Shown here in pieces: positions 16,861-40,193 of a stretch of 64,000 nt of DNA. The DNA lies in the NCBI GenBank assembly GCA_000002445.1, contig CP000071.1, positions 2,112,001 through 2,176,000 on the forward strand, in the 5' to 3' direction. Numbering within the stretch: position 1 is the stretch's first letter; each line of letters begins with the position of its first letter. A program made the translations under genes and the position numbers. Under the pieces are notes generated by a model that was not told the origin of the DNA, did no database searches, and saw only the letters and a list, made by a program, of their open reading frames with translations. The DNA is from Trypanosoma brucei. Taxonomy: Eukaryota.

Positions 16861-17044
16861 CTCCCCTTGCATAGGTTAAACCACATACGCGAAGTGTGGA
16901 GAGCGTAGAAACCAAAAAGTGTTGAAAGGGTAAGTAAAATAAACGTTAAAACGCAAGGGGGAATCGAGCACATAACTTCCATTTTCTTTTGCTTTGATAG
17001 GAAACGCTGAGACATTACCGGAGAGGCCAAAAAGTAGTGCAAAC

Positions 17045-20000: not shown

Positions 20001-22342
20001 GTCAAGTGTCCAACCTGAGCCCCATCACTATTATCGACCACGTGCGGAAACTTCAAGAAGATCTCATGAAACTCTTTCCATCTTACCACCGGGGAGGGGA
20101 TGGATACATCAGGAATACGTTGAGTCGTGAGCGCATTGAAAGTGCGCTTACTCTCTTCAACGTTCATTTGAGGCAGCTACTTGCGTCAAAAAGGGTGCTG
20201 AAGGAATATAAACTTAACGATAGGGCTTTTGAGTATCTTCTCAAGGAAATTAGAACCAAGTACCACCAGTCACTCACCACGCCGGGTGAGAACATTGGGG
20301 CAATCGCTGCGCAGTCGTGTGGTGAACCTGCCACACAAATGACACTTAACACGTTCCACAATGCGGGAATTTCCTCAAAGAACGTTACCCTCGGTGTGCC
20401 ACGTTTACTGGAGCTTCTAAACGTCTCACGAAACCAAAAGCACGCGAGCATGACAGTGTCTCTGTTTCCACCATATGATGAAAAGCGAAATGCGCAAAAG
20501 GCCCAGCATCTCATTGAATACTGCACGCTGGAGAGTATCACAAGGCGCATACAGTTCATCTACGACCCTGACCCACGTCACACCGTTGTGGAGGCTGATC
20601 GTGACATCCTAGAACTAGAGTGGAATGTTATGGATGAAAGCGATGCAGAGCTAAGAATACAGGAGGTAGTGGCAGGTTCGCCATGGGTGGTGAGGTTGGA
20701 GCTCGACGTGGATATGGTCACCGACAAGGCCCTCGATATGAAGGATGTGAAGCAAGCTATCCTGCGAGTGGATGAAAGCTACATAATTGAAACGGGAATG
20801 GCTAACAATGTGCGCCAGCGGACCATAAGAATGCGGTCCAGATATAACGAAGGAGCTGACTCGATCCCACAGCTTAAGCGTGAAATCCCAGCCCTTCTTG
20901 CGCGGGTTCACTTGCGTGGTATTCCCGGTGTGCGTCGGGCGCTGCTGAAGGACACCACCGAATTCACTGTAGATCAGGCAACGGGGAAAATGAGTGGCAA
21001 CAAAATATGGGCAATAGACACGGACGGCACGGCATTGCGACGTGCTTTTATTGGTGTCGTAGGTGAGGATGGTAAGAACATTATTAATGCGGTGAAAACG
21101 AGTAGCAACAAAGTGCCTGAGGTATGTAGTCTTCTTGGTATTGAGGCGGCGAGATCAAAGATGTTGACGGAACTTCGTGAGGCTTACCTGGCCTATGGTC
21201 TCAATATTAACTACCGCCACTATACTATACTGGTGGATACGATATGTCAGCATGGGTACCTGATGGCTGTTTCTCGCTCAGGAATCAACCGCTCCGATAC
21301 GTCGGGTCCGTTGATGCGCTGTTCATTTGAAGAAACTGTTAAGGTGCTTATGGCGGCTGCATCTTTTGGCGAGTGCGATCCCGTGCGTGGGGTATCAGCA
21401 AATCTTGTGCTCGGTAACCAAGCGCGCGTTGGTACGGGGCTTTTCGATCTTGTTCTCAACATGGCAGCGCTGCAGCAGGCTGTACCGCAGGCAGAAGCGG
21501 TTGCACCCGGAAAGGATGTAAATGTGTATCACAGTCTCGGGTCCACGCTGCAGCAAAATATCCAATCCTCCATTGCGTACCGACCAAGAGATCATGATGC
21601 AACACCGTTTGTAAACAATGCCAGTCTGTTTCTCCGCCAGGGTTTCGGTGGGGGGTCCTCCTCCGCACCAGTAACGGCCTCGGCCCCATACAACCCTTCG
21701 ACGACGTACCACGGCGGTCGGCTCGAAGCGAGCGCAGTGCACAGGAGTCAAGCTTATTCTACATCCCCCGCTTTGGAATACGGAGGGCGGGAAGCAAGCG
21801 CCTCACAAATGTACAGCGTTATGTCTTCCGCCAGCGCGTTCAACCCAGTTTCAACGCGGATGTCGTCAGTGGCACACAGTTATTCCGAATACAGTGAAGC
21901 CTCTTCTTACCACCTGCAACACAGCGTGGCGCCAACTTCCATGCAAGCTTCACTACCAAGAACCGACAACTCTATGACCATGCAAGGTATCGGTAGTGTT
22001 TCAGTACCGTACACGCCCCATGCCATGTCCAGTGCTGCCCCACCGTCGCAGGTATACGCCAGCACAGAAGTCGGCCGGTCGCACAGCGAGGACTCGCGGT
22101 CCCAGTCAGCTCTCTACGTTCCGACACTCTCACCCACCCACGCGGGTTACGCTATACGAGGTGATGAGCCATCCACACATCGTAGTGACTCAAATGTCAT
22201 GTGGCGGGAGGCTGGCGGGGGAAGGGAACAGGATGAGGAAGATGACCTCTCCACGAATTATATGCCCACTGCAAAGACACCCCAGCAGGTGGCACCGCCG
22301 ACAGCCGCAGAGTTTGGGGACGAGGAAGAGGAAGAACAGTAA
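17045..22342 (+). CDS. RPB1: DNA-directed RNA polymerase II largest subunit (RPB1)
   Basis: 1765-aa product from the ATG at 17045 (MSGGAALPVSQMEL...); the 6-frame ORF begins 17 codons upstream at 16994. It has the zinc-binding N-terminus (CETCHRKHPECPGHFGYIEL), the catalytic NADFDGDEMN Mg-binding motif (about 18490-18530), and conserved trigger-loop and cleft regions. The C-terminal approx. 290 aa are S/Y/P/A-rich without YSPTSPS heptads and end in an acidic EFGDEEEEEQ tail, as in trypanosomatid RPB1. Confidence 0.97.
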   Translation: MSGGAALPVSQMELHKVNEVQFEIFKERQIKSYAVCLVEHAKSYERGRPVRGGINDLRMGTTDFEFACETCHRKHPECPGHFGYIELAEPVFNIGVFDLVLQVLKCVCKTCGALLLNTREQDVHKKLQHMTGLNRLRQVAKMAEAKCRVSTSTEDDMGIDGFDSAPFNGGSGMGPGATRGCGASQPRVSRFYGIYPTLVIKAVHEEQDAEWHADKVRQVLDRVSDDDARLMGFDPQRCHPRDLVLTVLPVPPPQVRPAISFGGLRSDDELTHQIMSIVKRNNQLRRDKESDVQAAIDRSRALLQEHVATYFNNASTYYKPTKVNDTKKLKSLTERLKGKYGRLRGNLMGKRVDFSARTVITGDPNIDVDEVGVPFSVAMTLTFPERVNTVNKKRLTEFARRTVYPSANYIHHPNGTITKLALLRDRSKVTLNIGDVVERHVINGDVVLFNRQPTLHRMSMMGHRVRVLNYNTFRLNLSCTTPYNADFDGDEMNLHVPQSLLTKAELIEMMMVPKNFVSPNKSAPCMGIVQDSLLGSYRLTDKDTFLDKYFVQSVALWLDLWQLPIPAILKPRPLWTGKQVFSLILPEVNHPATPQDRPPFPHNDSVVMIRRGQLLCGPITKSIVGAAPGSLIHVIFNEHGSDEVARFINGVQRVTTFFLLNFGFSVGVQDTVADSDTLRQMNDVLVKTRRNVEKIGAAANNRTLNRKAGMTLLQSFEADVNSALNKCREEAAKKALSNVRRTNSFKVMIEAGSKGTDLNICQIAVFVGQQNVAGSRIPFGFRRRTLPHFMLDDYGETSRGMANRGYVEGLKPHEFFFHTMAGREGLIDTAVKTSDTGYLQRKLIKALEDVHAAYDGTVRNANDELIQFMYGEDGLDGARIEGGQLFPLPFRDDKEMEDTYKYEYDVDGTFSGKVGGNYMDPHVRKMLRADPQNVRKLQEEYEQLTADREWSRKMLDLEDRDKLKLNLPVNPGRLIQNARSTMGKRSQVSNLSPITIIDHVRKLQEDLMKLFPSYHRGGDGYIRNTLSRERIESALTLFNVHLRQLLASKRVLKEYKLNDRAFEYLLKEIRTKYHQSLTTPGENIGAIAAQSCGEPATQMTLNTFHNAGISSKNVTLGVPRLLELLNVSRNQKHASMTVSLFPPYDEKRNAQKAQHLIEYCTLESITRRIQFIYDPDPRHTVVEADRDILELEWNVMDESDAELRIQEVVAGSPWVVRLELDVDMVTDKALDMKDVKQAILRVDESYIIETGMANNVRQRTIRMRSRYNEGADSIPQLKREIPALLARVHLRGIPGVRRALLKDTTEFTVDQATGKMSGNKIWAIDTDGTALRRAFIGVVGEDGKNIINAVKTSSNKVPEVCSLLGIEAARSKMLTELREAYLAYGLNINYRHYTILVDTICQHGYLMAVSRSGINRSDTSGPLMRCSFEETVKVLMAAASFGECDPVRGVSANLVLGNQARVGTGLFDLVLNMAALQQAVPQAEAVAPGKDVNVYHSLGSTLQQNIQSSIAYRPRDHDATPFVNNASLFLRQGFGGGSSSAPVTASAPYNPSTTYHGGRLEASAVHRSQAYSTSPALEYGGREASASQMYSVMSSASAFNPVSTRMSSVAHSYSEYSEASSYHLQHSVAPTSMQASLPRTDNSMTMQGIGSVSVPYTPHAMSSAAPPSQVYASTEVGRSHSEDSRSQSALYVPTLSPTHAGYAIRGDEPSTHRSDSNVMWREAGGGREQDEEDDLSTNYMPTAKTPQQVAPPTAAEFGDEEEEEQ

Positions 22343-22954: not shown

Positions 22955-24142
22955 ATGCTAATGTGCATGCGCCCAGTAGCGGTCGCCTGTGTCTTCGTGG
23001 CTCTTGCAACGGTGGCAACTGTTCACGGCGCCATCCATTTCCATGAGAAGTTCAGCAGCATTGACCACTGGACAGCCTCAAAGGCACGCAGTGATTACGG
23101 CAAAGTGGAGCTGTCTGCCGGCAAGTTCTACGCGGATGCGGAGAAGAGCAAGGGCCTTCGACTTACGGAAGATGCTCGCTTCTATGCTCTCTCCACACCA
23201 CTCCCCACTCCCATCACAAACGAGAAGAAAGACTTCGTTGTTTCTTTCTCTGTGAAACATGAGCAGGACCTCCGGTGCGGCGGCGGGTACATTAAGCTCC
23301 TTCCACAGATGGATCCAGCTGAGCTCAAGGGGGAAACGAAGTATTGGCTCATGTTCGGACCTGACCGCTGCGGATACGACAAGAAGATTCACATCATCAT
23401 CAGCTACAACGGCGCAAACAGAGAGTGGAAGAAGCGCCCAAGCTACCCTGATGACAAACTAACCCATGTCTACACGCTGCACATCACCCCCAGTAATTCG
23501 TACGAGTTCTTCCTTGACGGCGTTTCGAAAGAAAAGGGAACCCTGGAGGCTGATTGGGATTTCCTCCCCGAAAAAGAAATTGATGACCCCGAAGACAAGA
23601 AACCCGCCGACTGGGTGGACGTGCCAACCATCGACGACCCAGAAGACAAAAAGCCGGAGGACTGGGACAGCGAACCGGAAAAAATTGTCGACCCCGAGGC
23701 GAAGAAACCAGAAGACTGGAACGATGCTGAGGACGGTGCATGGGAGGCCCCTATGATACCAAACCCAAAGTCGAAGGGCCCGTGGGCACCCCGTAAGATC
23801 CCGAACCCGGCCTACAAGGGTCCATGGGCGCCACGCAGGATCCCCAATCCAGCGTATAAGAATGATGAGGAACTTTACAAAATTCCTGAGCCTCTCACAC
23901 ATGTTGGCATTGACGTGTGGCAAGTGGAATCCGGCAGTATCTTCAAGGACATTATCATCGGCGATGATGTGAAGGAGGTGCTGGACATTGTGAAGAGCAC
24001 TTATGATGGCATGAAGAAAGCAGAAGAGGATGCCCTCGCAGCCTTCGAGAAGAAGAAAGAACAAGATAAAAAGGAGGAAAACAAGAAGGAAACCGACGGG
24101 GAAGAGGACAAAAAGAAGAAGGAGGATAAGTCAGACTTGTAG
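22955..24142 (+). CDS. CRT: calreticulin
   Basis: N-terminal signal peptide (MLMCMRPVAVACVFVALATVATVHG), a globular lectin domain (CGGGYIKLL..KYWLMFGPDRCG), P-domain repeats (KPADWVD / KPEDWD / KPEDWND and GPWAPRKIPNPAYKG x2, about 23590-23860), an acidic KKEE-rich C-domain and a C-terminal -KSDL ER-retrieval-like tail. Confidence 0.95.
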   Translation: MLMCMRPVAVACVFVALATVATVHGAIHFHEKFSSIDHWTASKARSDYGKVELSAGKFYADAEKSKGLRLTEDARFYALSTPLPTPITNEKKDFVVSFSVKHEQDLRCGGGYIKLLPQMDPAELKGETKYWLMFGPDRCGYDKKIHIIISYNGANREWKKRPSYPDDKLTHVYTLHITPSNSYEFFLDGVSKEKGTLEADWDFLPEKEIDDPEDKKPADWVDVPTIDDPEDKKPEDWDSEPEKIVDPEAKKPEDWNDAEDGAWEAPMIPNPKSKGPWAPRKIPNPAYKGPWAPRRIPNPAYKNDEELYKIPEPLTHVGIDVWQVESGSIFKDIIIGDDVKEVLDIVKSTYDGMKKAEEDALAAFEKKKEQDKKEENKKETDGEEDKKKKEDKSDL

Positions 24143-25643: not shown

Positions 25644-28223
25644 ATGTCAGCCCAGCTGCAGCAAAAGTTATTTCGCATTCCCGGAAATATTGCCGTCTCC
25701 GTTGGCCTCCACTGGGATTTCGTCGGCGCGGACCCCGTGGACCTTGATCTGAGTGCTGTAGCTTTTAGCAGTGAGGGAGTCCTGCTTGATGTGGTTTTCT
25801 TCAATCATCCTTTTCCAGTCGGCACCGATGAGGAGGCGCTACGAGACTGCGGCTTCCTCGTTGACCCGCAGCAACTGCCTTATATGTTTATCAGTGGCGA
25901 CAGTCGTATTGGAGGCGAAGAAGAGAACCGTCTACCAGGACTTGCACTCGCTGCTCGCCGCCGTGCTCTCCAAATGCGGGGCGGAAGAGACGACGAGCTG
26001 AAGCGGTTTGGAGTCATTGAATCTATTTTCTCCCGCATCTACAACGAATCGGAGCTAGAGATGGTTGAGGAGGTGCTGAATGACAAGCGTGGCGGAGGTC
26101 ACATATTTGATGAAGATGGACGAGCGTTTCGTAGCGAAAACTCTCGCGAGATGTGCGACGAGTCTGTAACGTTCGTGATGCACAAGATACCGTCCGAGGC
26201 GGCGGTCATATTTCTCGTTGTGACCAGCTACACCGGAGCTGACTTTTCTGTACTACCCACTGTCAAGCTTGTTGTGGTGAATGAAATGACAAATGAGCAG
26301 GTGGGGACAATTGATCTGAAGCACGCCACTGGAAATGGCACGGCAAACTTGGCGTGCATGCTCTGCCGCGTTCCTACGAGGCTCAGCGGTAGCACAGCAC
26401 CTGGAAGTGCCAATGGAACAATAACAATGGACGGGGGTTCTCGTCAGTTATGGGACTTGCGAGAGCTGAACATCCGGACGTTTGGTTACACTTTTGTAGA
26501 CACGCTACCCACCATGATGGACGTCCTTGGAGTGGAGGTGAACTCCCGCACTAATGCGGTCTGGCAACTTCCAGACTACTCATTATCAAAGGATTCATAC
26601 GGGGCGTTGCGGCAGCCGCTCTCGGATGTGCGGTTCGGGGTTGGTTGGGGTGGTGATCACGATTTAGATTCCTTCATGGTGTTTTTAGACGAAAAGAATA
26701 ATTACGTAGACCACATTAACCCAAAACCGGTTAAGCTACAATCGAGATTCCCACACACCGCACGTCATTCGGGGGATGCAATTAATGGATATAGTGCCGT
26801 GGGCGATGAAGAATTTATTGACCTAGTCACGTACCGCCTCCCGTTGGAGGTGCACACAATTATATTCGGTGTGTGTTACGTAGAGGGCGGCCGTAGCACA
26901 AGGAGCATTATGGATGTGCCCAAGTTCTACATGCGGCTGCAGAATCGCACGGCAGCATGGCCGAACGCCATTGAAGTAGACCGCTGGAATGTTCATGAGG
27001 AAATAAAGCGGGCAGATGAGGAAAGAAAAAGGTTGAAGGAAGCGCAGCTGCAAGGCTCCAAGTCAGCGGACAACCTTCCAAAGGTTAGTGAGTTGTCCTC
27101 ACGCCTCTTACACACCTACAAGGGAGCCGACGGTAAGATGTTTCCCGTGCGTGCGCTGGTGCTCGGCATGATGGTCAAAACTGCAGAAGCTCCGCTTAGG
27201 GAACTCTACCCGGAGGCTTGCGCTCAGAAGCCTGAAGGGGAGTTGGGGGAAGTGGAACGGCGAAATTCGAGCGGATCTCCACGTGACTCCGACGCTCAAG
27301 TAGCAACGGAAGAGGAGGACGGGAATGCAGCGGGTGCTGATCCGCTTCCAGAAAGCGATACTGTTGTTTCCGTGTTTCAGTATCTCCCCATTCACGAGTA
27401 CGTTCCCATCAGCAATGCAAAAGGGTTTGTGGAAATGATGCCGTATATGCGCTGCATAGCAAAGTACTGTCGGAACAAGCCTAGCAGCAATTTAGCAACT
27501 CGAAGTAGTGCGGATCAGAATATTAATAACCCACTACGACTGCAAACCTTCCAGCCGCAGCTAAGCACACAGACTTCTATGTGGGATCAGGTACGAGCTT
27601 CCAGTGGAGTGCTTTCCTACCACGCCGTGAGGGTGCAGTTTCTTGAGGTGCGGCATCTGCAACCGGAGCTGCCACACGTATTCAAGTGCCACGGTGAGGT
27701 GTGGGTATGCGAAAAGACACCCTTTACGGAGAAGCGCTCACTAACCGTATACGACCAACCAACCTTCCGCACACCATACTTAATGCACAGGCAGAACATG
27801 CAGTGGGACGAAAGCAACCCAGCCACGGCCGCGTTACTCTTCGTACGGGAATTTGATCGTATCCGTGTGGTTATATACGAGCGCGCCGCCTTCGGCTACG
27901 TGGACATTGACCTTATGGATATTAACGAGTTGTGGTCACAGAACCCGCAACCTGATCTGTTCGTGCCAAATGCAACGCAGCCGGCGAGTCTTATGTCCGC
28001 CACCCCGGCGCAGGACCGGTGGTTTCAGTTAAGCGGTGGACCACTTAGTGATGGGTTAGTGCGGCTGCGCATATCTCGTGCTCCGATTGGAAAGCTGCTC
28101 GAGGAGAGTGAGCGAACCATTGCAGCAGCAAAGAAGAAAAGGCGAGACCATGCGAGGGCTGTGGAGGAAGAAAAACATGAGGCTGCTAGAGAAAGGTACT
28201 CAGGACCGTGCTGCATCATGTAA
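25644..28223 (+). CDS. protein with two tandem TerD-like domains and a C-terminal C2-like region
   Basis: N-terminal region (about 25686-26378) matches the TerD (tellurite-resistance / cAMP-binding CapA-like) fold: VDLDLSAVAFSSEGVLLDVVFFNH ... GDSRIGGEE ... AAVIFLVVTSYTGADFSVLPTVKLVVVNEMT. A second TerD-like module lies at about 26436-26963 (GVGWGGDHDLDSFMVFLDEKNNYVDHINP ... HSGDAINGYSAVGDEEFIDLVTYRLP ... IIFGVCY). After a coiled-coil/acidic linker, aa about 620-800 look C2-like (beta-sandwich-type hydrophobic pattern). Confidence 0.75.
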   Translation: MSAQLQQKLFRIPGNIAVSVGLHWDFVGADPVDLDLSAVAFSSEGVLLDVVFFNHPFPVGTDEEALRDCGFLVDPQQLPYMFISGDSRIGGEEENRLPGLALAARRRALQMRGGRDDELKRFGVIESIFSRIYNESELEMVEEVLNDKRGGGHIFDEDGRAFRSENSREMCDESVTFVMHKIPSEAAVIFLVVTSYTGADFSVLPTVKLVVVNEMTNEQVGTIDLKHATGNGTANLACMLCRVPTRLSGSTAPGSANGTITMDGGSRQLWDLRELNIRTFGYTFVDTLPTMMDVLGVEVNSRTNAVWQLPDYSLSKDSYGALRQPLSDVRFGVGWGGDHDLDSFMVFLDEKNNYVDHINPKPVKLQSRFPHTARHSGDAINGYSAVGDEEFIDLVTYRLPLEVHTIIFGVCYVEGGRSTRSIMDVPKFYMRLQNRTAAWPNAIEVDRWNVHEEIKRADEERKRLKEAQLQGSKSADNLPKVSELSSRLLHTYKGADGKMFPVRALVLGMMVKTAEAPLRELYPEACAQKPEGELGEVERRNSSGSPRDSDAQVATEEEDGNAAGADPLPESDTVVSVFQYLPIHEYVPISNAKGFVEMMPYMRCIAKYCRNKPSSNLATRSSADQNINNPLRLQTFQPQLSTQTSMWDQVRASSGVLSYHAVRVQFLEVRHLQPELPHVFKCHGEVWVCEKTPFTEKRSLTVYDQPTFRTPYLMHRQNMQWDESNPATAALLFVREFDRIRVVIYERAAFGYVDIDLMDINELWSQNPQPDLFVPNATQPASLMSATPAQDRWFQLSGGPLSDGLVRLRISRAPIGKLLEESERTIAAAKKKRRDHARAVEEEKHEAARERYSGPCCIM

Positions 28224-30546: not shown

Positions 30547-31653
30547 ATGAGTGAGCGGAAAGGCAACCACATGGCGCGCCCGTATTCTTCGTTCCGCAAC
30601 TCACTCTCCAACCTCGCCCCCATCGTTATCGTTTGTTTATTCAGTTTCCCGGTACATTTTAAATACGCCTTTGCCGACTACTCGGAGGAGACGGCGTTGT
30701 CTGCTTTAAACTTTTCCAAGGTTTCGTATTGCAATGCCGACCTCATCCGTAATTGGACCTGTGCGGCATGTCGTAATGAGTCTGCGTTCGTCTTGAAGGG
30801 GCTGTTTGAGAATAAAACGGAGGGCACACTGGCGTTTGCAGGGACGAGCGAAGGTAAAATTGTAGTAGCGTTCAGGGGTTCCCTGAATATCGCCAACTGG
30901 GTGGACGACATAAAGTATTGGGGGACTCCATACCCCAACGCGAGCTGCGAAAATTGTTTGGTTCACAGAGGCTTTTTCGATGCTTTCGAGTCACTTAGGG
31001 CACAAGTACGGCAAGCGCTACATGAGCTAATTGTGTCGGAACCAAATTTTCCAGTTCTCATCACAGGACATAGCCTTGGTGGAGCCCTCGCCCTCCTCAC
31101 AGCTGTTGATTTAATGTCTTCCCCTCCAGTAGTGCCATCACTTCAAGGTGGCAATTACCCGTCAGTACAGCTCTATACGTTTGGGAAGCCACGCGTAGGT
31201 AACCCTGCCTTTGTACAGTGGGTGAAAACATTGTTCCGTAGCGGGAGCCATGAGCCCTACCGCGCCGTGCACCGAAAGGACATTGTTCCCCACCTTCCAC
31301 CATTGTTCATGGGTTATGTGCATGCGCCACACGAACTGTGGTTTAAGTATGATGATCCGTTGGAGTGCCTGAACTGCAGCGATATGGACGATATTAACTT
31401 TTCCACGGGAAGTGTAGGGGAGGACTATTGTTGCAGTGACAGCTTGGATTATCCATCTGTGGCGGATCATCTGATGTATCTCGGAGTTTGCACCGGATGC
31501 GCATGCGACGGTCCCACAACAGCATCCATCCCTGGCTTAAATATTTCGTGGGAAACGCGGCAAATGTTGGCGAAGGACCGCGCATATGCGCAGAGGAAAC
31601 GACCCAGGAAATCGTGCTCGGTCCTCCGCGCTGTCGACAAGCCTGCGGACTGA
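30547..31653 (+). CDS. secreted class-3 (fungal-type) triacylglycerol lipase-like protein
   Basis: Hydrophobic signal-like N-terminus, the nucleophile elbow ITGHSLGGALALL (31063-31089), and an upstream lid/oxyanion region (VAFRGS..NW). Multiple Cys residues are consistent with a disulfide-stabilised secreted lipase. Confidence 0.85.
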   Translation: MSERKGNHMARPYSSFRNSLSNLAPIVIVCLFSFPVHFKYAFADYSEETALSALNFSKVSYCNADLIRNWTCAACRNESAFVLKGLFENKTEGTLAFAGTSEGKIVVAFRGSLNIANWVDDIKYWGTPYPNASCENCLVHRGFFDAFESLRAQVRQALHELIVSEPNFPVLITGHSLGGALALLTAVDLMSSPPVVPSLQGGNYPSVQLYTFGKPRVGNPAFVQWVKTLFRSGSHEPYRAVHRKDIVPHLPPLFMGYVHAPHELWFKYDDPLECLNCSDMDDINFSTGSVGEDYCCSDSLDYPSVADHLMYLGVCTGCACDGPTTASIPGLNISWETRQMLAKDRAYAQRKRPRKSCSVLRAVDKPAD

Positions 31654-32746: not shown

Positions 32747-33775
32747 GTGTATTTATCTACACATTTGGCAGTTCGCATTTTGGTCAAACTAATGCAGCCC
32801 GCGGGGGGGAACTCGAGTCCGAAATCCACAGGCGAGAGTTGCATTTGTAGCGCCACGAAATATATTTACAGCTTTCGGAAGAAGGAATGGGTTGTGTTAG
32901 CCACCAATGTCGAAATTATAACGCCACTCAAACCCTTTGCTAAGGGTGGCATGCGGGTCTGTTATGAGGTTGAGGAAATCGAAGACGACGGCAGCCGCAC
33001 GCGCTGCATTGCCAAGTTGTTCCTTAAGGTTGTGAGTGACGTGAAGGAAGAGGATTATTTCTGCGAAGGGGAAGCGCAGTGTCTCTGCGAAGAATTTGCG
33101 AGCAACTTCAACAAGGCTCCCTTCAATGGACCTAATAAACCGCGCATATCATTCTTACAGTGTCAGGTGTTGCGTATTAGTCGTAATATCATCCCCCGCG
33201 AGTACCGTCAGCTGAAGGATGGGTTCTTCTCCCACCGCACAGTCGACACGGGAGATGTTCTTTTCGTGATGGAACCCAAACTTGGGGGACACTTCACAAA
33301 GTATAACAGCAACTACGGTGACGTCTATGAGGATGATAAGCACTGCAAAACGGACTCCCAGAAACGGAAGCGTCAGCATATGTTGCACGTGGCTGAAGCT
33401 TTCTCTCATTTCACTCTCGTAGATAGCCTGGGCTCGATGCTTTTGTGCGATCTGCAGGGCGTCAATGACTTGTTGACAGACCCGCAAATTCACACGGAGG
33501 ACGGTCGGGGCCTCGGGTTGGGGAACATGGGCACGGAGGGCATTACGAGGTTCGTGGCCAACCACAAATGCAACGAAATTTGCGAGGGTTTGGATCTGAA
33601 GCCGCTGACAGGTGTGGTGCCGGAGTCTAGTGATGAAGCAAAGAAGTCAAATGTTTACGCGTACCTGCGGGCCCAACTCCGACAGGATTTCATCCCACCT
33701 CCTAAACCGATATCTGAGATGACAGAAGAGGAAAAGTTTGAGCACGCGCTGCAGCTGTCCCGCGTCACTTACTGA
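32747..33775 (+). CDS. alpha-kinase domain protein (atypical protein kinase, eEF2K/MHCK family)
   Basis: Signature alpha-kinase motifs: LCDLQGVNDLLTDPQIHT (DxQG...TDPQIHT, 33453-33497), the Gly-rich GLGNMGTEGI segment, and a conserved N-lobe (GGMRVCYEVEEIED...CIAKLF). The catalytic domain is at about 32880-33650. The exact start codon is uncertain. Confidence 0.8.
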   Translation: MYLSTHLAVRILVKLMQPAGGNSSPKSTGESCICSATKYIYSFRKKEWVVLATNVEIITPLKPFAKGGMRVCYEVEEIEDDGSRTRCIAKLFLKVVSDVKEEDYFCEGEAQCLCEEFASNFNKAPFNGPNKPRISFLQCQVLRISRNIIPREYRQLKDGFFSHRTVDTGDVLFVMEPKLGGHFTKYNSNYGDVYEDDKHCKTDSQKRKRQHMLHVAEAFSHFTLVDSLGSMLLCDLQGVNDLLTDPQIHTEDGRGLGLGNMGTEGITRFVANHKCNEICEGLDLKPLTGVVPESSDEAKKSNVYAYLRAQLRQDFIPPPKPISEMTEEEKFEHALQLSRVTY

Positions 33776-35993
33776 ATGAAAGGGGTGTGGAAGTGGGTGG
33801 ATACACTTGGTATTCACAAGCTAAAGGGGAAGACGGGAGAAATGAGTGTTGCTTCTACATCTGTCCGGACTACGGTTGCAGCCAACGTCGCCGTTGGTGT
33901 TGTCATAAATGCCAAAGGTGGTGCCGTTGTTGCTGCTGCAAACGCTGCTCGCATCATAGTGCATTCCTTAGAGCACGGCACAGTTATTCGAAGCGGGACG
34001 TTTTAAACCAACAAGAGGGGGAGGCCGTCTCTGTTGCTGTTGTTGTTGTTCACGGTCCCTTGTACGTTTCTTTTTTAGTGTCACTCACGCTTCAATATGT
34101 TCCGCTTTGCCGCGGCGGGCAGCAACGTCACTGCTATTGTGTGTGTACGCGAGTGTTTGTTGCTGAATGGTCCGTCGGTGCTGCTGCTGTCGTGAGTTAC
34201 TGACGTTATAAATTTCGCGCACCTGCTTCTTTCTTTGCTCAATTGTAAGAATTCGCTTCAGCCGTCCGTGTAATTTGAGCTCGTGATCGCGCCCCGCGTT
34301 GTCAACCACGTCACCGCATGATGATGCGCTTTTTCTGCGGGTGAGTGGTTCTCTGCTTCCGCTTCCGACAGTCTGGAAATGATAAATACTGTCAGCACGC
34401 GCAGGGTGGAGAAGATCGGGGTTAGCGAGGACTGGGGGCCATGTTTTTTTCTGCCTTCATAAGGGAAAAGAGAAAAAGTGAAAGGAGAGGACGGGCTGTC
34501 GCGCAGCCTTTATCAGGAAGCTAATTGCGGCCGCCTTGCTTCTGCTCTTTTTCGTCGAGCGTTGTATATTTCCAACCTCGCTGTTCGCTTAGTGTCTTCT
34601 CTCTGTCTTTCTTTTTGTGCCGTTGTGTGGTTCTTTTATTCTTCAGCTTATATGGAGTCTTGTATATCATATAATTTACGGTGGTCCGCCTTAACCGCCC
34701 CCCTAGTTGGTGTTCCCCAGCGCGCACCCTTCTGCTGCAAGACACCTCACTTGCCCCTTTCACAATATTACTTTGCTTTTGGCGCTGCATTTGATTTGTA
34801 CCTGCGGGGAACCGTTGGAAGTTACACACAAACATTTCCTCTCCTTCATTCTTTAGGCATCGCTGTACATTCTGTGGTGCCCGCGCTTGTGGTATGAAGG
34901 CGAGAAACCGGCGTCGCGGGTGCGTGAAGCACTCAGCAGTGTGTCCGTCCTTCTTCAAATGTCGTTTTACCCCTCGTTGCTTCTTCCCCAAATACAAAAA
35001 GTGCACTTACGCACACAAATACACACATCGACTTCTTTTTCCTCGCTTACTCACTTAACGGAAAACGGGGGATGTTATGCTGAGGCGCACTTTTTATCAC
35101 TAGGGGAAAAGTTTGCCACGCCAAGTCTGCGGTTTAACTTCAGTGCGGCGGTCGCCAAACTATAGCCCCGAGTGTATTATGATCCCTAAATTGCTGCATA
35201 TATTTTGTGAATGTTTCAGTGCAGACATGATTTTTCCCCCTCTCCTTCAACGTGGCTACTCCTCTGCCCATCTTTGCTTTTTCCTCCCTTCCCCACCCCC
35301 CTTTCCTCCATGGCTTGGATTCACCAACACCACCTTGCGACACGCCAAATGGTGAAGGAGGTACGAGTGCGGCGGCGGCGGCGCGGCACGGGTTGCTATA
35401 GACTTTTGCAAACAAAAGTTAAGAAGGAAAAAGTTGGAAAGAGGCTAAACGACATTGAAGTGCGGCCGCACGGCAATCGCAAGGGAAGATATAAGCAAGA
35501 AAAGAAGGAGTGTTCGGATTTCGAAAATCGGGGTCAGCACATAACGCCACACTAAACTGAATATAAGTTCAGGAACGCAAGTGACTCAAAGTTCAGAAAG
35601 AGCAGGAGGAGTGTAAAGCAGAGGGTGTTGAAATCGTGTCAAACAGGGAGAAATTCGAGTTGCAAAACGGTTGTGGCTCTTCGTTGCTGTCGTCGGCTAT
35701 AGGGGAGCGTCTACCGTTTTGTAAGAACTACGCGGGTGTTTATATAAATATAGACGGAGTGAGTAACGAATCCAACGGCACTGCGCAAACAAGTGTGTTT
35801 CATCAAGGCAGTGTACCAGCGGCTAGGCTTTGTGGAAGCGGCAACCGGCAAAGTGGAGAACTGAGAAGCGGGAAAGAACAACATTGCTTCAAATCGTAGG
35901 ATTCGGTGAGGAAGGATCGCATTCGCATCGCGAGGTGTGTCGGGGCACGTTATTTTTGGTAGGCGTGTAGTTGATTGGAGGACGGCTACGAGC

Positions 35994-37409
35994 ATGGAAG
36001 AGGCAAGTAGCGAGCACCAGCGGCTCCTTCCCTGCAGCTCCGGCCCACACTCGAACTACAACGCAGCAGCCGTGGAAGTGGGCACTCCAGCGGCACCTTC
36101 CCCATGGGGTGGGTTGGAGGACGCAGATCAACAATCCTTGAACTCGACGGAAGTGCGGCGGCGCCATGAGTCGAAGGTATTGTTAGCTGCCCTCATGTTC
36201 TGTTTCGTGTTCATGCTGGTAGAGCTCATGTTCGGCGTGGTGGCACACTCCCTGGCACTTCTGACTGACGCCTCGCATCTCCTCATCGACGTGGGCGCCT
36301 ATGCGCTGAGTATCATGAGCCTACGTGCCGCCTCGAGGACCTCCTGCGGGAAGTACAGCTACGGCTGGCACCGCGCGGAAGTCATCGGAACGCTTGTTTC
36401 GGTCTTCTCCATTTGGGCCCTTGTCGTCTGGATTGTCATGGAGGGGTTGGATAGGTCATGGAATGTAGTGAAGTGTAGCCGTATCCATGCTATGCTTGCT
36501 ACCACTGCTCAACAGTACAAGCGGAATAATAGCACCAGCTATTACGGCTTCGGTAATATTTCACAGCGCCCTACGGTCGACAAGGATGGAGCGCTGACAG
36601 AGGCGACGCATATGGAAATGTGTACAAGTATCGACTCACCCATCATGGTTGTGGTGGGTGTACTAGGGATGGTGGTAAACGTTGTATGCGCCGCTATTTT
36701 GTACTTCGGTGGTTCGCACGGCCACAGTCATTTTGGTGGATCACACCATCATAGCCATAGCGGTAACGGGGAAGAAGAGGATTCACTATGCGAGGAGAAT
36801 ACTGGGCACAATCACAGTCACGACCATGGACATGGACACGGGCACAGCGGAAGTGAAGGTGAAGGTCATGATCACAGTCACAGTCACAGTGGCAGAGGGT
36901 TCGCCGTTCACGCTGCTCTGCTTCATGCGTTGGGTGATTGTGTCCAGTCTCTCGGCGTCATCCTCGCTGGAATCTTCATTTATGTCGCAAACCGTTATTC
37001 GTACGGTGTTCCATCATATCGCTACTCCATTTACAACCTTGCAGACCCGCTGTGCTCGCTACTGTTTGCCGTCATTACGCTCAACATGACGCGACCGTTG
37101 CTGCGGGACCTTCTGGGAATTCTCATGGAGAGTACCCCTCCGGGTATTAACTACTCCGAGTTGTTGAGTGCCCTGCGCAGTATTAAAGGTGTTGAAGGCG
37201 TACACGACCTTCACGTGTGGTCGATTGCCTCCGACTACGCAGCGCTTTCGGTTCATCTTGAGGCAGACGATAAGGATGCAGCCCTTCAGGAGGCACAGGA
37301 GGTTTGCAAGAGATTTGGCATCACCCATACGACCATTCAGGTGGACACGGTGGAAAATGGGGCAGGTCTATGTCACTCCCTGTGCGCCTCGGCACAAACT
37401 ATCGCCTAA
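35994..37409 (+). CDS. cation diffusion facilitator (ZnT/SLC30-like) zinc transporter with a His-rich loop
   Basis: CDF signature HSLALLTDASHLLIDVGAYALSIMSL ... YGWHRAEVIGTLVSVFSIWALVVWIV, six predicted TM helices, and a cytoplasmic His-rich loop (HGHSHFGGSHHHSHSG...HNHSHDHGHGHGHSGSEGEGHDHSHSHSG, about 36715-36895). The ORF begins at 35937, but the ATG at 35994 (MEEASSEHQ) is the more plausible start. Confidence 0.9.
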   Translation: MEEASSEHQRLLPCSSGPHSNYNAAAVEVGTPAAPSPWGGLEDADQQSLNSTEVRRRHESKVLLAALMFCFVFMLVELMFGVVAHSLALLTDASHLLIDVGAYALSIMSLRAASRTSCGKYSYGWHRAEVIGTLVSVFSIWALVVWIVMEGLDRSWNVVKCSRIHAMLATTAQQYKRNNSTSYYGFGNISQRPTVDKDGALTEATHMEMCTSIDSPIMVVVGVLGMVVNVVCAAILYFGGSHGHSHFGGSHHHSHSGNGEEEDSLCEENTGHNHSHDHGHGHGHSGSEGEGHDHSHSHSGRGFAVHAALLHALGDCVQSLGVILAGIFIYVANRYSYGVPSYRYSIYNLADPLCSLLFAVITLNMTRPLLRDLLGILMESTPPGINYSELLSALRSIKGVEGVHDLHVWSIASDYAALSVHLEADDKDAALQEAQEVCKRFGITHTTIQVDTVENGAGLCHSLCASAQTIA

Positions 37410-38480: not shown

Positions 38481-40193
38481 ATGCAAAGCGGCAGTGAGAA
38501 GCGGAACGGTCAAAAGCGCCCCCGACATGCAGGTGAAGCAGCGGCCTCTTCACCAGCGGTATCACTCAAACAAAAGAAACTGAAACCGAAGAAAAAGACG
38601 GATAATGCAGGTGAAGGGAATGAGGACCAACTTCAGCAACGGCGGCGGCAACAAGAGGAAAAGCGAAATTTACCGATTGCATCATCATCACCAGCGGCAG
38701 CGCAGCAAGTGAAGAGTCCGGTGTTGGATCAAGTGCAGGCGAAAGTCCCTACTGAAGAGTGTCGCAGCGCCCTGCTGGTCATTGGAACATATCACTCCGT
38801 CATGGCGGGGTTGCTCTACCGGCGTCGCCGCTTCGGCCTGCTTTTTTCCATCAAGCACCATGTCGGATGCATCAACGCTGTCACAGCTGGGGGCGGGGCG
38901 AAGTATATGGCTTCGGCGGGCACGGATGAGCGGGTATTTCTATTCACCAATAAAAGTCACAGCGTTCAAAAGCAACTGAAGCTCTTGAAAAAGAAGCAAA
39001 AACGGCAAGCGAAAAGGCTGAAGAAAGGTGGTGAACCATGTGAGAACGGTGGGGAAATGGAAGAAACCCTGGCTTTTGCTGGTCCTTCCGCAGAAACAAA
39101 TAGCGGCAGCAGCGCTGAGCCTCTTGCTCTCAGACTTACCGATTTGGGTCACGTCTCACCACCCAGTGAAGTACGTTGTATGAAGATAACGAGTAACTCA
39201 CAGCTGATGTTGTGTGGTTGTACTGACGGGCAGCTTATAACATACCGCACACGTGATTGGTCCATCAACTCGGCTATTCCATTACATGAGAAATGCATCT
39301 CTAGCATTGCCCTACATCCGGGAAGCAATAATGACGGCGGTTCCGGTGCGGCGCTTGCCATTACTTGCTCGGCAGAAGACCACCATATTGTAGTTGTAGA
39401 CTTGTTGAGGGGTCGGTTACTAAGCAAATGGCGCTACAGTACATCACTAGCAACAGCAATAAGTCGATACAGTGCCAACAAAGACAACGGTGGAAGGGAT
39501 AATGTCGCGTCTCCGGCTGCTGTACAAACAACAAGCAACAGCGATGAGCCCGGGAGGCCGGTGAAGCTGGCGAAGTGGGAGCGGCACGACGAGCCACGTG
39601 AGGTCCACTTCTCCCCAGTAGGTTCTTACTTCGCCGTTCTGTCCAGTCACGCTCTACTTGTTTATGAGACGGCCACGATGCGGGCTGTGGCGCACTACCG
39701 GGCTCCTTCTCCGCTGCAGCCGCACAATGAAATGCACACCTTCTGTTTCATGGACGAACAAACCATAATGATTGGTGATGAGTCGGGAAACATACGATGC
39801 TGCTGTGGGCCATGGCAGGGGGCTTGCGTTCCGGGGATCGTGGAACGGCGTATTCCCCATGGTAGTGAGGGCGGTAACGTTGGAGTTTGCGGTACTAACA
39901 ACAGCAGCGGGGATACGACTGGCAGCTTTGCCGCTGGTTCTGATGCGTCACAGCATTCGGGACGTCACCCCACAAAGCATTCAACGCGTGTGAAAGCACT
40001 GCATTGTGCTGGCCGAACCCTCTTTTCATTGGATGCGGCGGGTGTCGCTATCGCTTGGAATGTGGATAAAGGAGGCATCAGCAGTAATAACAGTATCAGT
40101 GCGAGTGGCAAAAGCTCAGATTTGATGCTCCACTACATCTGTAGTGCAAACTGCAGGGGTCGTGTGACGACGATGGATGTGTTGCGGCTGTAG
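38481..40193 (+). CDS. hypothetical WD-repeat-like protein with basic (NLS-like) N-terminus
   Basis: 570-aa ORF. The N-terminus is rich in K/R (KQKKLKPKKKTD) followed by QQRRRQQEEKR. The downstream region has beta-propeller-like blades (HVGCINAVTAGGGAKYMASAGTDERVFLF; CGCTDGQLITYRTRDWS; ITCSAEDHHIVVVDL). This resembles nucleolar ribosome-biogenesis WD proteins, but I cannot name a specific family. Confidence 0.6.
   Translation: MQSGSEKRNGQKRPRHAGEAAASSPAVSLKQKKLKPKKKTDNAGEGNEDQLQQRRRQQEEKRNLPIASSSPAAAQQVKSPVLDQVQAKVPTEECRSALLVIGTYHSVMAGLLYRRRRFGLLFSIKHHVGCINAVTAGGGAKYMASAGTDERVFLFTNKSHSVQKQLKLLKKKQKRQAKRLKKGGEPCENGGEMEETLAFAGPSAETNSGSSAEPLALRLTDLGHVSPPSEVRCMKITSNSQLMLCGCTDGQLITYRTRDWSINSAIPLHEKCISSIALHPGSNNDGGSGAALAITCSAEDHHIVVVDLLRGRLLSKWRYSTSLATAISRYSANKDNGGRDNVASPAAVQTTSNSDEPGRPVKLAKWERHDEPREVHFSPVGSYFAVLSSHALLVYETATMRAVAHYRAPSPLQPHNEMHTFCFMDEQTIMIGDESGNIRCCCGPWQGACVPGIVERRIPHGSEGGNVGVCGTNNSSGDTTGSFAAGSDASQHSGRHPTKHSTRVKALHCAGRTLFSLDAAGVAIAWNVDKGGISSNNSISASGKSSDLMLHYICSANCRGRVTTMDVLRL

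What the first reader, a model, noticed from the sequence alone, without database searches (positions are those of the whole stretch)
32747..33775. Alpha-kinase (atypical eEF2K/MHCK-type kinase) with intact DxQG...TDPQIHT catalytic core
The motif string LCDLQGVNDLLTDPQIHT is essentially diagnostic for alpha-kinases. The Gly-rich loop (GLGNMGTEGI) and N-lobe (CIAKLF...) are also present. Alpha-kinases are sparse and phylogenetically patchy (Dictyostelium, metazoa, a few protists). A compact 342-aa alpha-kinase with no obvious regulatory domains is an attractive, drug-targetable atypical kinase whose substrates in kinetoplastids are unknown.
Basis: partly seen in the sequence, partly recalled or inferred. 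Interest (0 to 1): 0.5.

Follow-up and report, generated by a model that had tools for sequence, protein, structure and literature searches.

The report
Known trypanosome alpha-kinase with UIM tail
This is the already annotated Trypanosoma brucei alpha-kinase gene Tb927.8.7450, an intact atypical protein kinase whose knock-down gave no growth defect; the one thing not apparently reported is a conserved ubiquitin-interacting motif at its C-terminus.

Summary
The ORF at 32747-33775(+) encodes a full-length Pfam Alpha_kinase domain (E=1.5e-51). The catalytic Lys/Glu/Asp/Gln/Asp and all four zinc ligands are identical to Dictyostelium MHCK A, and the predicted fold matches only alpha-kinases. The real start is the first ATG at 32792, giving 327 aa rather than 342. 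The protein is 100% identical to XP_847574.1, T. brucei TREU927 Tb927.8.7450 ("myosin heavy chain kinase A, putative"). It has a 94%-identical paralog on chromosome 4, Tb927.4.4970. The pair was catalogued in the 2005 and 2009 kinome papers and discussed in the 2007 chr4/chr8 duplicon paper. It was knocked down in the 2014 kinome-wide RNAi screen with no loss of fitness in that screen. Substrates remain unknown, and the "MHCK A" name rests on similarity only. "No regulatory domains" is wrong: the last 23 residues form a ubiquitin-interacting motif. A profile of these tails hits only solved UIMs in PDB (S5a UIM2, RAP80 UIM1, E~4e-6). The motif is conserved from Bodo saltans to Leishmania. Overall this is an ordinary, already known gene with one modest new detail.

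The parts
32792..33775 (+). Coding sequence of the alpha-kinase Tb927.8.7450 (327 aa plus stop).
   Evidence: Searches give the ORF, the first ATG at 32792 and no upstream in-frame ATG. One search shows the exact sequence equals XP_847574.1/AAZ13508.1. Searches show the published Tb927.8.7450 RNAi primers match perfectly.
32939..33583 (+). Alpha-kinase catalytic domain (aa 50-264), matching the Pfam PF02816 profile end to end.
   Evidence: E=1.5e-51, profile 1-185/185. Foldseek top 44 PDB hits are all alpha-kinases, with MHCK A at E~1e-18 and TM(target) 0.74-0.79. AF2 mean pLDDT 81.4.
33005..33022 (+). N-lobe strand CIAKLF containing the catalytic Lys75 (33014-33016). It aligns to MHCK A Lys645 in 'FVLKLY'.
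   Evidence: alignment. K75 is invariant in 19 kinetoplastid orthologs.
33272..33274 (+). Glu161 in 'VMEPKL', equivalent to MHCK A Glu713 in 'SIEPLL'.
   Evidence: alignments. Invariant.
33443..33496 (+). Catalytic core LCDLQGVNDLLTDPQIHT with Asp220 (33449-33451), Gln222 (33455-33457) and Asp230 (33479-33481). These correspond to MHCK A Asp756, Gln758 and Asp766.
   Evidence: in chain 4zs4 (D756A) the Ala aligns to D220, and in 3lmi (D766A) the Ala aligns to D230. The entry titles call both mutants 'inactive'. All three residues are invariant.
33509..33544 (+). Gly-rich loop GLGLGNMGTEGI in the C-lobe (GxGxGNxG), aligned to MHCK A 'GFGLGNLGKAGI'.
   Evidence: G240, G242, G244, N245 and G250 are invariant.
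33407..33409 (+). His206 in 'AFSHFT', the first zinc ligand (MHCK A His742).
   Evidence: Identical 'AFSHFT' in MHCK A. Invariant. The identification as a zinc ligand comes from established knowledge of the ChaK and MHCK A structures.
33563..33583 (+). HKCNEIC: His258, Cys260 and Cys264, the remaining zinc ligands (MHCK A His794, Cys796, Cys800 in 'HKCNAVC').
   Evidence: alignments. H258, C260 and C264 are invariant.
33704..33772 (+). C-terminal ubiquitin-interacting motif (aa 305-327, KPISEMTEEEKFEHALQLSRVTY). The core, MTEEEKFEHALQLS, lies at 33719-33760.
   Evidence: a profile of 25 orthologous tails hits only solved UIMs among the top 11 of 177,635 PDB sequences (S5a UIM2 E=3.6e-6, RAP80 UIM1 E=4.4e-6), and the next hit is at E=0.32; sub-threshold Pfam UIM, UIM_2 and RAP80_UIM hits in register on 7 of 8 tails; present in essentially all close homologs; predicted helix at 312-326.
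33257..33746 (+). The fragment targeted by the published RNAi construct pTL141 (Jones et al. 2014).
   Evidence: primers TLO281 and TLO282 match at 33257-33276(+) and 33727-33746(-) with 0 mismatches.

Best explanation
The locus is Tb927.8.7450 of Trypanosoma brucei brucei TREU927 (chromosome 8). It is one of two near-identical paralogous genes for a small, catalytically competent alpha-kinase. Shown by sequence and predicted structure: a complete alpha-kinase fold; the ATP-phosphate-binding Lys75; Glu161; the catalytic-loop Asp220 and Gln222; the metal-binding (and in MHCK A phospho-accepting) Asp230; the C-lobe Gly-rich loop; and a His/His/Cys/Cys zinc module. Inferred from this: the protein transfers the gamma-phosphate of ATP to Ser/Thr of protein substrates in the same way as MHCK A, eEF2K or TRPM7. 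It has no WD40, coiled-coil, calmodulin-binding, SEL1 or channel domain. Its only accessory element is a single C-terminal UIM helix that closely resembles S5a/Rpn10 UIM2 and RAP80 UIM1. Also inferred: this UIM tethers the kinase to ubiquitin, or to a ubiquitin-like domain, on a partner or substrate, and/or promotes regulatory ubiquitination of the kinase itself. Reported: knock-down in bloodstream-form culture causes no growth defect, so the function is dispensable, redundant or condition-specific. Substrates are unknown.
For: Pfam Alpha_kinase hit at E=1.5e-51, full length. Best solved relatives are MHCK A (E=1e-27), eEF2K (3e-22), Entamoeba AK (6e-16) and TRPM7/ChaK (2e-10). All catalytic and zinc residues are identical, and D220 and D230 align to the Ala of the inactive D756A and D766A mutants. 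The AF2 model (pLDDT 81.4, pTM 0.78) matches only alpha-kinases by Foldseek, with the top 44 hits at E from 7.6e-19 to 1.1e-7. Those residues are invariant in 19 orthologs spanning Trypanosoma, Leishmania, Phytomonas, Angomonas and more distant sequences. The sequence is exactly XP_847574.1 and the RNAi primers match. Paralog divergence is 27 synonymous against 20 nonsynonymous codons and spares every catalytic residue, which indicates purifying selection on both copies. UIM evidence comes from the PDB profile search, the Pfam sub-threshold hits, conservation in about 46 of 50 homologs and in Bodo saltans, and the predicted terminal helix. [quoted passage not shown] PMC2716717 counts 2 alpha kinases. 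PMC2212663 names the pair. PMC3894213 Table S1 gives Alamar Blue ratios of 1.04 and 1.02 for Tb927.8.7450 and 1.005 for Tb927.4.4970.
Against: No kinase activity, substrate, localisation or ubiquitin binding has been measured for this protein, so catalysis and UIM function are inferred from conservation. Single UIM tails fall just below Pfam's curated cut-offs (best 20.7 bits against 21), and the T. brucei tail itself scores only 13-15 bits. The T. brucei motif has Phe at the hydrophobic position and ends 4 residues after the conserved Ser, lacking the trailing acidic residue of the textbook consensus. The RIT-seq column of PMC3894213 Table S1 lists 'Day 3 BSF' loss of fitness for Tb927.8.7450, which conflicts with the targeted RNAi result. 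The targeted RNAi fragment is about 95% identical to the paralog, so which copy or copies were depleted was not established here.
Confidence: 0.9

Rival explanations
1. The protein is a true orthologue of Dictyostelium myosin heavy chain kinase A, as its database name says, and phosphorylates a myosin heavy chain to control filament assembly.
For: MHCK A is the best solved-structure match, and databases name the protein 'myosin heavy chain kinase A, putative'.
Against: Similarity is confined to the catalytic domain at 27-29% identity. The domains that define MHCK A outside the catalytic core, an N-terminal coiled coil and a C-terminal WD-repeat that targets myosin II filaments, are absent. Pfam finds nothing but Alpha_kinase in 327 aa, and only about 50 and 60 residues flank the domain. 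From general knowledge, not tested here, kinetoplastids lack a myosin II with a filament-forming coiled-coil tail. Sister paralogs in Leishmania are named 'elongation factor-2 kinase-like' just as arbitrarily.
Confidence: 0.04
2. The protein is an eEF2 kinase analogue that phosphorylates elongation factor 2 to throttle translation under stress.
For: eEF2K is the second-best solved relative (E=3e-22, Foldseek E~4e-18). Some paralogs are annotated 'elongation factor-2 kinase-like'. A stress-only role would fit the absence of a growth phenotype in culture.
Against: There is no calmodulin-binding segment N-terminal to the kinase domain, and the C-terminal SEL1-like helical repeats that recruit eEF2 in eEF2K are missing (one search shows no such Pfam hit, and the tail is only about 60 aa). 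No experiment links it to eEF2.
Confidence: 0.1
3. The C-terminal motif is not a ubiquitin reader. It could be an acidic phospho-regulatory tail, with T311 in 'MTEEE' as a CK2-type or autophosphorylation site that docks back on the kinase like Thr825 of MHCK A or Thr348 of eEF2K. Alternatively it could be a generic amphipathic helix.
For: Alpha-kinases are commonly activated by a phospho-Thr in a C-terminal tail (established knowledge for MHCK A and eEF2K). The Thr/Ser after the invariant Met is conserved. Single-sequence Pfam UIM scores are sub-threshold. The basic position equivalent to the MHCK A phosphate-pocket Lys684 (K116) is mostly K/R in orthologs.
Against: The profile search finds only bona fide UIMs, and nothing else, in the whole PDB sequence set. 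The conserved positions (acidic run, hydrophobic, x, x, Ala, hydrophobic, x, x, Ser) are exactly the ubiquitin-contacting positions of UIMs. The 'MTEEEQ' prefix is itself shared with S5a UIM2 and RAP80 UIM1. The two functions are not mutually exclusive.
Confidence: 0.2
4. The gene is a decaying or functionless duplicate, or a pseudokinase, left over from the chr4/chr8 segmental duplication.
For: It lies in a duplicon where many paralogs have diverged or been lost (PMC2212663), and RNAi gave no growth defect.
Against: The reading frame is intact. All catalytic and zinc residues are conserved in both copies and in all orthologs back to Bodo. Synonymous changes exceed nonsynonymous ones despite roughly three-fold more nonsynonymous sites. 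Jackson 2007 cites this pair as an example of 'extreme conservation'.
Confidence: 0.03

Closest known systems
Tb927.8.7450 / Tb927.4.4970 (T. brucei 'myosin heavy chain kinase A, putative'), the small trypanosomatid alpha-kinases of Parsons et al. 2005
   Same: It is the same gene. The protein is 100% identical to XP_847574.1, and the published RNAi primers map inside it. Orthologs are present in T. congolense, T. vivax, T. cruzi, T. grayi, T. theileri, Leishmania, Phytomonas, Angomonas and Bodo.
   Different: Nothing differs. The only addition is the C-terminal UIM, which the papers I could read do not mention.
Dictyostelium discoideum myosin II heavy chain kinase A (MHCK A), alpha-kinase domain (PDB 3LKM and related entries)
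   Same: The catalytic fold matches (Foldseek E~1e-18, TM 0.74-0.79). The Lys, Glu, Asp, Gln and Asp residues, the Gly-rich loop and the zinc ligands are identical.
   Different: Identity is only 27-29%. There is no coiled-coil or WD-repeat domain. A 16-residue Lys/Arg-rich insertion (KHCKTDSQKRKRQHML) precedes the 'AFSHF' helix. A C-terminal UIM takes the place of the WD40 targeting domain. The myosin II substrate is not expected in kinetoplastids.
Eukaryotic elongation factor 2 kinase (eEF2K; PDB 7SHQ)
   Same: The alpha-kinase catalytic core matches (E=3e-22, Foldseek E~4e-18).
   Different: There is no calmodulin-binding element, no regulatory loop and no C-terminal SEL1-like repeat domain. 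The protein is 327 aa against 725 aa.
Entamoeba histolytica alpha kinase (PDB 4KUJ/4NL0)
   Same: It is another protist alpha-kinase solved as a catalytic domain of about 288 aa (E=5.9e-16, E~2e-14).
   Different: It is a more distant sequence at 25-26% identity. The UIM tail profile gave no hit to its deposited chain in the PDB search.
UIM2 of proteasome subunit S5a/Rpn10 (PSMD4) and UIM1 of RAP80
   Same: The tail profile aligns 'PlseMTEeEQleyAIklSll' to S5a '[20 protein letters not shown]' and RAP80 'IAQMTEEEQFALALKMSEQ' at E~4e-6. It is a single predicted helix.
   Different: S5a and RAP80 use tandem UIMs for chain-type selectivity, whereas here there is one UIM at the extreme C-terminus, attached to a kinase. 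Ubiquitin binding has not been tested.

Membership tests
Alpha-kinase family (Pfam PF02816) | Profile match above the curated threshold over the whole domain | tested here: met
   175.5 bits against a cut-off of 21.3, E=1.5e-51, profile positions 1-185 of 185.
Alpha-kinase family (Pfam PF02816) | Catalytic residues: N-lobe Lys (MHCK A K645), Glu (E713), catalytic-loop Asp-x-Gln (D756, Q758) and metal-binding Asp (D766) | tested here: met
   K75, E161, D220, Q222 and D230 are identical. D220 and D230 align to the Ala of the inactive mutants in 4zs4 (D756A) and 3lmi (D766A). All are invariant in 19 orthologs.
Alpha-kinase family (Pfam PF02816) | C-lobe zinc-binding module (His, His, Cys, Cys) | tested here: met
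   H206 in AFSHFT and H258, C260, C264 in HKCNEIC align to the identical MHCK A residues and are invariant. Zinc binding itself was not measured.
Alpha-kinase family (Pfam PF02816) | Alpha-kinase three-dimensional fold | tested here: met
   The AF2 model has pLDDT 81.4. The Foldseek top 44 PDB hits are all alpha-kinase domains, and conventional kinases appear only at E~1e-2. This is a predicted structure, not a solved one.
Alpha-kinase family (Pfam PF02816) | Ser/Thr protein kinase activity | not testable with these tools
   I found no biochemical data for any trypanosomatid alpha-kinase.
Myosin heavy chain kinase A (the annotated name) | C-terminal WD-repeat domain and N-terminal coiled coil flanking the alpha-kinase domain | tested here: not met
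   no WD40 or coiled-coil family at E<=1. Only 49 aa lie N-terminal and 63 aa C-terminal to the domain; the flanks are beta-strands of the N-lobe and short helices.
Myosin heavy chain kinase A (the annotated name) | Phosphorylates the myosin II heavy-chain tail | not testable with these tools
   No data exist. Absence of myosin II in kinetoplastids is general knowledge and was not checked here.
eEF2 kinase | N-terminal calmodulin-binding segment and C-terminal SEL1-like repeats | tested here: not met
   no Sel1 or other repeat family is detected. The protein is too short, with a tail of about 60 aa. A short CaM-binding motif cannot be formally excluded by Pfam.
Ubiquitin-interacting motif (UIM; Pfam PF02809/PF23625/PF18282) | About 20-residue helix with the pattern acidic run, hydrophobic, x, x, Ala, x, x, x, Ser | tested here: met
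   MTEEEKFEHALQLS at aa 310-323. The pattern is conserved in about 46 of 50 homologs. S323 is invariant and A319 is at least 90% conserved. A helix is predicted at 312-326.
Ubiquitin-interacting motif (UIM; Pfam PF02809/PF23625/PF18282) | Significant profile similarity to established UIMs | tested here: met
   the family-tail profile against PDB returns solved UIMs of S5a and RAP80 as the top 11 hits (E=3.6e-6 to 0.04), with the next unrelated hit at E=0.32. A caveat is that single tails against the Pfam UIM models are just sub-threshold (best 20.7 against 21 bits, with the T. brucei tail at 13-15 bits).
Ubiquitin-interacting motif (UIM; Pfam PF02809/PF23625/PF18282) | Binds ubiquitin or a UBL domain | not testable with these tools
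   This needs NMR, ITC or pull-down experiments.

The most novel reading that the evidence does not exclude
The kinetoplastid small alpha-kinases may form a distinct, ancient subfamily, present from free-living Bodo saltans to Leishmania and Trypanosoma, in which an alpha-kinase is fused directly to an S5a/RAP80-type ubiquitin-interacting motif. They would then be ubiquitin-guided (or UBL-guided) kinases that phosphorylate ubiquitinated proteins, proteasome-shuttle components or endosomal-sorting components. I found no paper reporting this coupling of alpha-kinase to ubiquitin reader.
Probability: 0.4. Interest if true: 0.4.

Novelty: already known. Interest (0 to 1): 0.15.

Why it matters
As a gene discovery it matters little. 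Three points are still useful. (1) The database name 'myosin heavy chain kinase A' is a similarity label that fails the membership test and should not be read as a function. (2) Alpha-kinases were left out of the Leishmania kinome deletion study, and no substrate is known in any trypanosomatid, so the family remains a real functional gap. (3) The conserved C-terminal UIM gives a concrete, testable handle, namely ubiquitin or UBL binding and a UIM-dependent interactome, for finding what these kinases do.

Tried and rejected
(1) I first suspected the window came from an unsequenced relative of T. brucei, because the best database hit was only 94% identical. I rejected this: the 90% cluster representative is the paralogous type, and the exact sequence is TREU927 XP_847574.1. 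(2) look-up of encoding contigs found no record for the exact window protein or for the chr4 paralog P0047, so the TREU927 chr4 DNA could not be compared directly. (3) I suspected unusual positive selection between the paralogs, given 20 aa changes at the '98% identity' reported by Jackson 2007. I rejected this: the gambiense and T. equiperdum copies of the other type (L001/L002), used as stand-ins for Tb927.4.4970, differ from the window CDS at 50-54 nt, with 23-27 synonymous and 20 nonsynonymous codons, which is ordinary. (4) A Pfam scan of the whole protein at E<=1 gave no accessory domain, and the only extra hit (SVA, E=0.027, sub-threshold) is noise. The UIM emerged only from ortholog conservation and a tail-specific profile. 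(5) Literature searches for 'alpha-kinase' with 'ubiquitin-interacting motif' or 'UIM', and for DAL972 with 'chromosomes 4 and 8', returned nothing. (6) The Leishmania kinome-deletion paper and the 2022 review contain no alpha-kinase data, and the 2021 membrane-kinome hit was a false positive on 'eIF2 alpha kinase'. (7) I considered mapping the MHCK A phosphate-pocket residues (K684, R734, T736).
Full report
**Observation.** The ORF reported at 32747-33775(+) is present, and it contains the quoted motif strings at the expected places. Position 32747 is a GTG that only a bacterial-code ORF caller treats as a start. The upstream in-frame stop is TGA at 32723, and the first ATG in frame is at 32792. 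For a eukaryote the CDS is therefore 32792-33775, giving 327 aa, which is the annotated length of all T. brucei copies. A pyrimidine-rich stretch followed by AG lies about 65-110 nt upstream of this ATG. That fits a trans-splice acceptor, but it is an inference only.

**What it is.** Pfam Alpha_kinase (PF02816) matches end to end (profile 1-185 of 185, 175.5 bits against a cut-off of 21.3, E=1.5e-51). The closest solved proteins are:
- Dictyostelium MHCK A (E=1e-27)
- human eEF2K (3e-22)
- an Entamoeba alpha-kinase (6e-16)
- TRPM7/ChaK (2e-10)
- ALPK1

In the alignments the N-lobe Lys (K75 in CIAKLF against FVLKLY) and the Glu (E161 in VMEP against SIEP) are identical to MHCK A. So are the catalytic loop D220-x-Q222, the metal-binding D230 in TDPQIHT, the Gly-rich loop, and the zinc ligands H206, H258, C260 and C264.

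The PDB holds the inactive mutants D756A (4zs4) and D766A (3lmi), with titles shown. In one search their Ala residues align exactly to D220 and D230. This ties the window's residues to experimentally essential positions. An AlphaFold2 model built on a 19-sequence alignment has mean pLDDT 81.4 and pTM 0.78. Foldseek against the PDB returns 44 hits at E<=0.001, all of them alpha-kinase domains. Conventional kinases appear only at E~1e-2. Every one of these functional residues is invariant across 19 orthologs and paralogs.

**Identity and prior knowledge.** The 327-aa protein is exactly XP_847574.1/AAZ13508.1, 'myosin heavy chain kinase A, putative', of T. brucei brucei TREU927, on the 2,481,190-bp record (chromosome 8). 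The RNAi primers published for Tb927.8.7450 match the window perfectly at 33257-33276 and 33727-33746. The primers for the paralog Tb927.4.4970 each have one mismatch. The published record is as follows.
- Parsons et al. [quoted passage not shown] ' Their Table S4 lists Tb08.10K10.110 and Tb04.3M17.320.
- Nett et al. 2009 (PMC2716717) count two alpha kinases in T. brucei.
[quoted passage not shown] (26: Tb927.4.4970 and Tb927.8.7450)' as an example of extreme conservation between chr4/chr8 duplicon paralogs.
- Jones et al. 2014 (PMC3894213) made RNAi lines for both genes. Alamar Blue ratios were 1.04 and 1.02 for Tb927.8.7450 and 1.005 for Tb927.4.4970, meaning no loss of fitness in bloodstream-form culture. 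The RIT-seq column of the same table lists 'Day 3 BSF' for Tb927.8.7450, a discrepancy the table leaves unresolved.
- The Leishmania kinome-wide deletion study covered only ePKs and PIKKs, so alpha-kinases were not tested there.

No paper in the searchable library reports activity, substrate or localisation. The finding is a correct reading of a known, annotated and already screened gene.

**Surroundings.** The gene sits in a long same-strand array typical of trypanosome polycistronic units. The order on the + strand is RNA polymerase II largest subunit (16994-22342), calreticulin (22955-24142), a TerD-domain protein (25644-28223), a class-3 lipase (30547-31653), the alpha-kinase, a cation-efflux/ZT_dimer transporter (35937-37409), and a WD40 protein (38481-40193). 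Trypanosome gene order does not imply shared function, and nothing here suggests a functional module.

**The paralog.** The two T. brucei 'types' differ at 20 residues (94% identity). At codon level the window differs from the other type at 54 nt, with 27 synonymous and 20 nonsynonymous codons. This is ordinary purifying selection, and no catalytic or zinc residue is touched. Five of the differences cluster in the first 15 residues, which are disordered in the model (pLDDT 39).

The claim of 'no obvious regulatory domains' does not hold. In the ortholog alignment the extreme C-terminus is conserved as M-[TS]-[DE]-x-[EQ]-x-hydrophobic-x-x-A-hydrophobic-x-x-S. M310 and S323 are invariant, and E314 and A319 are at least 90% conserved. 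In the window this is MTEEEKFEHALQLS at 33719-33760, and it fits the ubiquitin-interacting motif pattern. The evidence is:
- Pfam's UIM, UIM_2 and RAP80_UIM models hit 7 of 8 tails in the same register, but all just below the curated thresholds (best 20.7 against 21 bits).
- A profile built from 25 non-redundant tails (A3) was searched against all 177,635 distinct PDB sequences. The top 11 hits were exclusively solved UIMs: S5a/PSMD4 UIM2 (1P9C, 1UEL, 2KDE, 1YX4; E=3.6e-6 to 4.5e-5) and RAP80 UIM1 (2MKG, 2RR9, 3A1Q; from E=4.4e-6). The next, unrelated hit was at E=0.32.
- The motif is found in essentially all close homologs, including the free-living kinetoplastid Bodo saltans. It is absent from 125 of 143 more distant alpha-kinase representatives.
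- The model predicts a terminal helix at 312-326.

No paper in the library holds both 'alpha-kinase' and 'ubiquitin-interacting motif' or 'UIM'. I could not check whether InterPro already lists it.

**Mechanism.** Shown: an intact alpha-kinase catalytic apparatus under purifying selection, plus a conserved UIM-like helix. Inferred:
- ATP-dependent Ser/Thr phosphorylation occurs as in MHCK A, eEF2K and TRPM7.
- The zinc module stabilises the C-lobe.
- The UIM recruits the kinase to ubiquitin or UBL-bearing partners, or mediates its own regulatory ubiquitination.

Unknown: substrates, activation mode, localisation and physiological role. The absence of a growth phenotype suggests a dispensable, redundant or condition-specific function.

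**Comparison and membership.** The protein is a member of the alpha-kinase family, and all testable defining features are met. It is not a member of the MHCK A or eEF2K subfamilies in any architectural sense, because the WD40 and coiled-coil domains and the CaM-binding and SEL1 domains are absent. The database name is a best-hit label. Relative to MHCK A it carries a 16-residue Lys/Arg-rich insertion before the AFSHF helix, and it has a UIM where MHCK A has its WD40 targeting domain.

**Verdict.** Interest is low (0.15). The residual novelty is the conserved alpha-kinase plus UIM architecture, which is worth a quick database check and a simple binding experiment.

Noticed in passing
window 22793-43771, compared with loci L001-L004: The chromosome assignment of the duplicon differs between assemblies. 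The window (TREU927 chr8, the 2.48-Mb record) is colinear at 98.5-98.7% over 21 kb with T. b. gambiense DAL972 FN554967.1 (1.43 Mb, chr4; L004) and with T. equiperdum CM010675.1:966-987 kb (L003). All three have a class-3 lipase gene upstream of the kinase. Gambiense FN554971.1 (2.23 Mb, chr8; L001) and CM010675.1:1999-2020 kb (L002) have a ferredoxin gene upstream instead, and they match the window only in patches at 93-98%. At protein level the 927-chr8 copy pairs with the gambiense-chr4 copy and vice versa. This is either a real reciprocal exchange between the chr4 and chr8 duplicons or a scaffolding mis-assignment in a reference-guided assembly. The T. equiperdum assembly places both copies on one scaffold. 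A literature search found nothing.
   Followed up: partly
window 32792-32836 (aa 1-15): Five of the residues that distinguish the TREU927 chr8 copy (P3, N7, S9, S12, E15) cluster in the first 15 amino acids. They are unique to this copy: the 927 chr4 copy and both gambiense copies share 'MQSAGGDSTPKPTGA'. This suggests either local rapid divergence in 927 or a short gene-conversion tract in the others. The region is disordered in the model (pLDDT 39).
   Followed up: no
window 33332-33400 (aa 181-203): Relative to MHCK A there is a 16-residue Lys/Arg-rich insertion (DKHCKTDSQKRKRQHML). It extends the helix that leads into the zinc-ligand motif AFSHF. It lies where MHCK A has its phosphate-pocket residues R734 and T736, so it might alter the activation mechanism or act as a nuclear-localisation-like patch.
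   Followed up: no
proteins P0051-P0055 (e.g. Leptomonas pyrrhocoris XP_015659949.1, 1303 aa): The best-scoring representatives in the exhaustive search are 1174-1303-aa proteins with 3-4 separate matches to the query. These are tandem multi-alpha-kinase-domain proteins of Leishmaniinae without a detectable UIM. They are probably the '>1000 aa' Leishmania alpha kinases mentioned by Parsons et al. 2005.
   Followed up: no
window 16994-22342 (+): This is one of the two RNA polymerase II largest-subunit (RPB1) genes of T. brucei, and it lies 10 kb upstream in the same duplicon. In the gambiense chr8 locus L001 the RPB1 region is called as fragments and calreticulin is missing, which points to an assembly gap or collapse there. 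That is relevant to the chr4/chr8 discrepancy above.
   Followed up: no
PMC3894213 Table S1: The two RNAi datasets conflict for this gene. RIT-seq lists 'Day 3 BSF' loss of fitness for Tb927.8.7450 and 'No LOF' for Tb927.4.4970, while the targeted RNAi lines show no defect for either. Because the paralogs are about 95% identical in nucleotide sequence, read mapping in RIT-seq and cross-knock-down in the targeted RNAi are both ambiguous.
   Followed up: no
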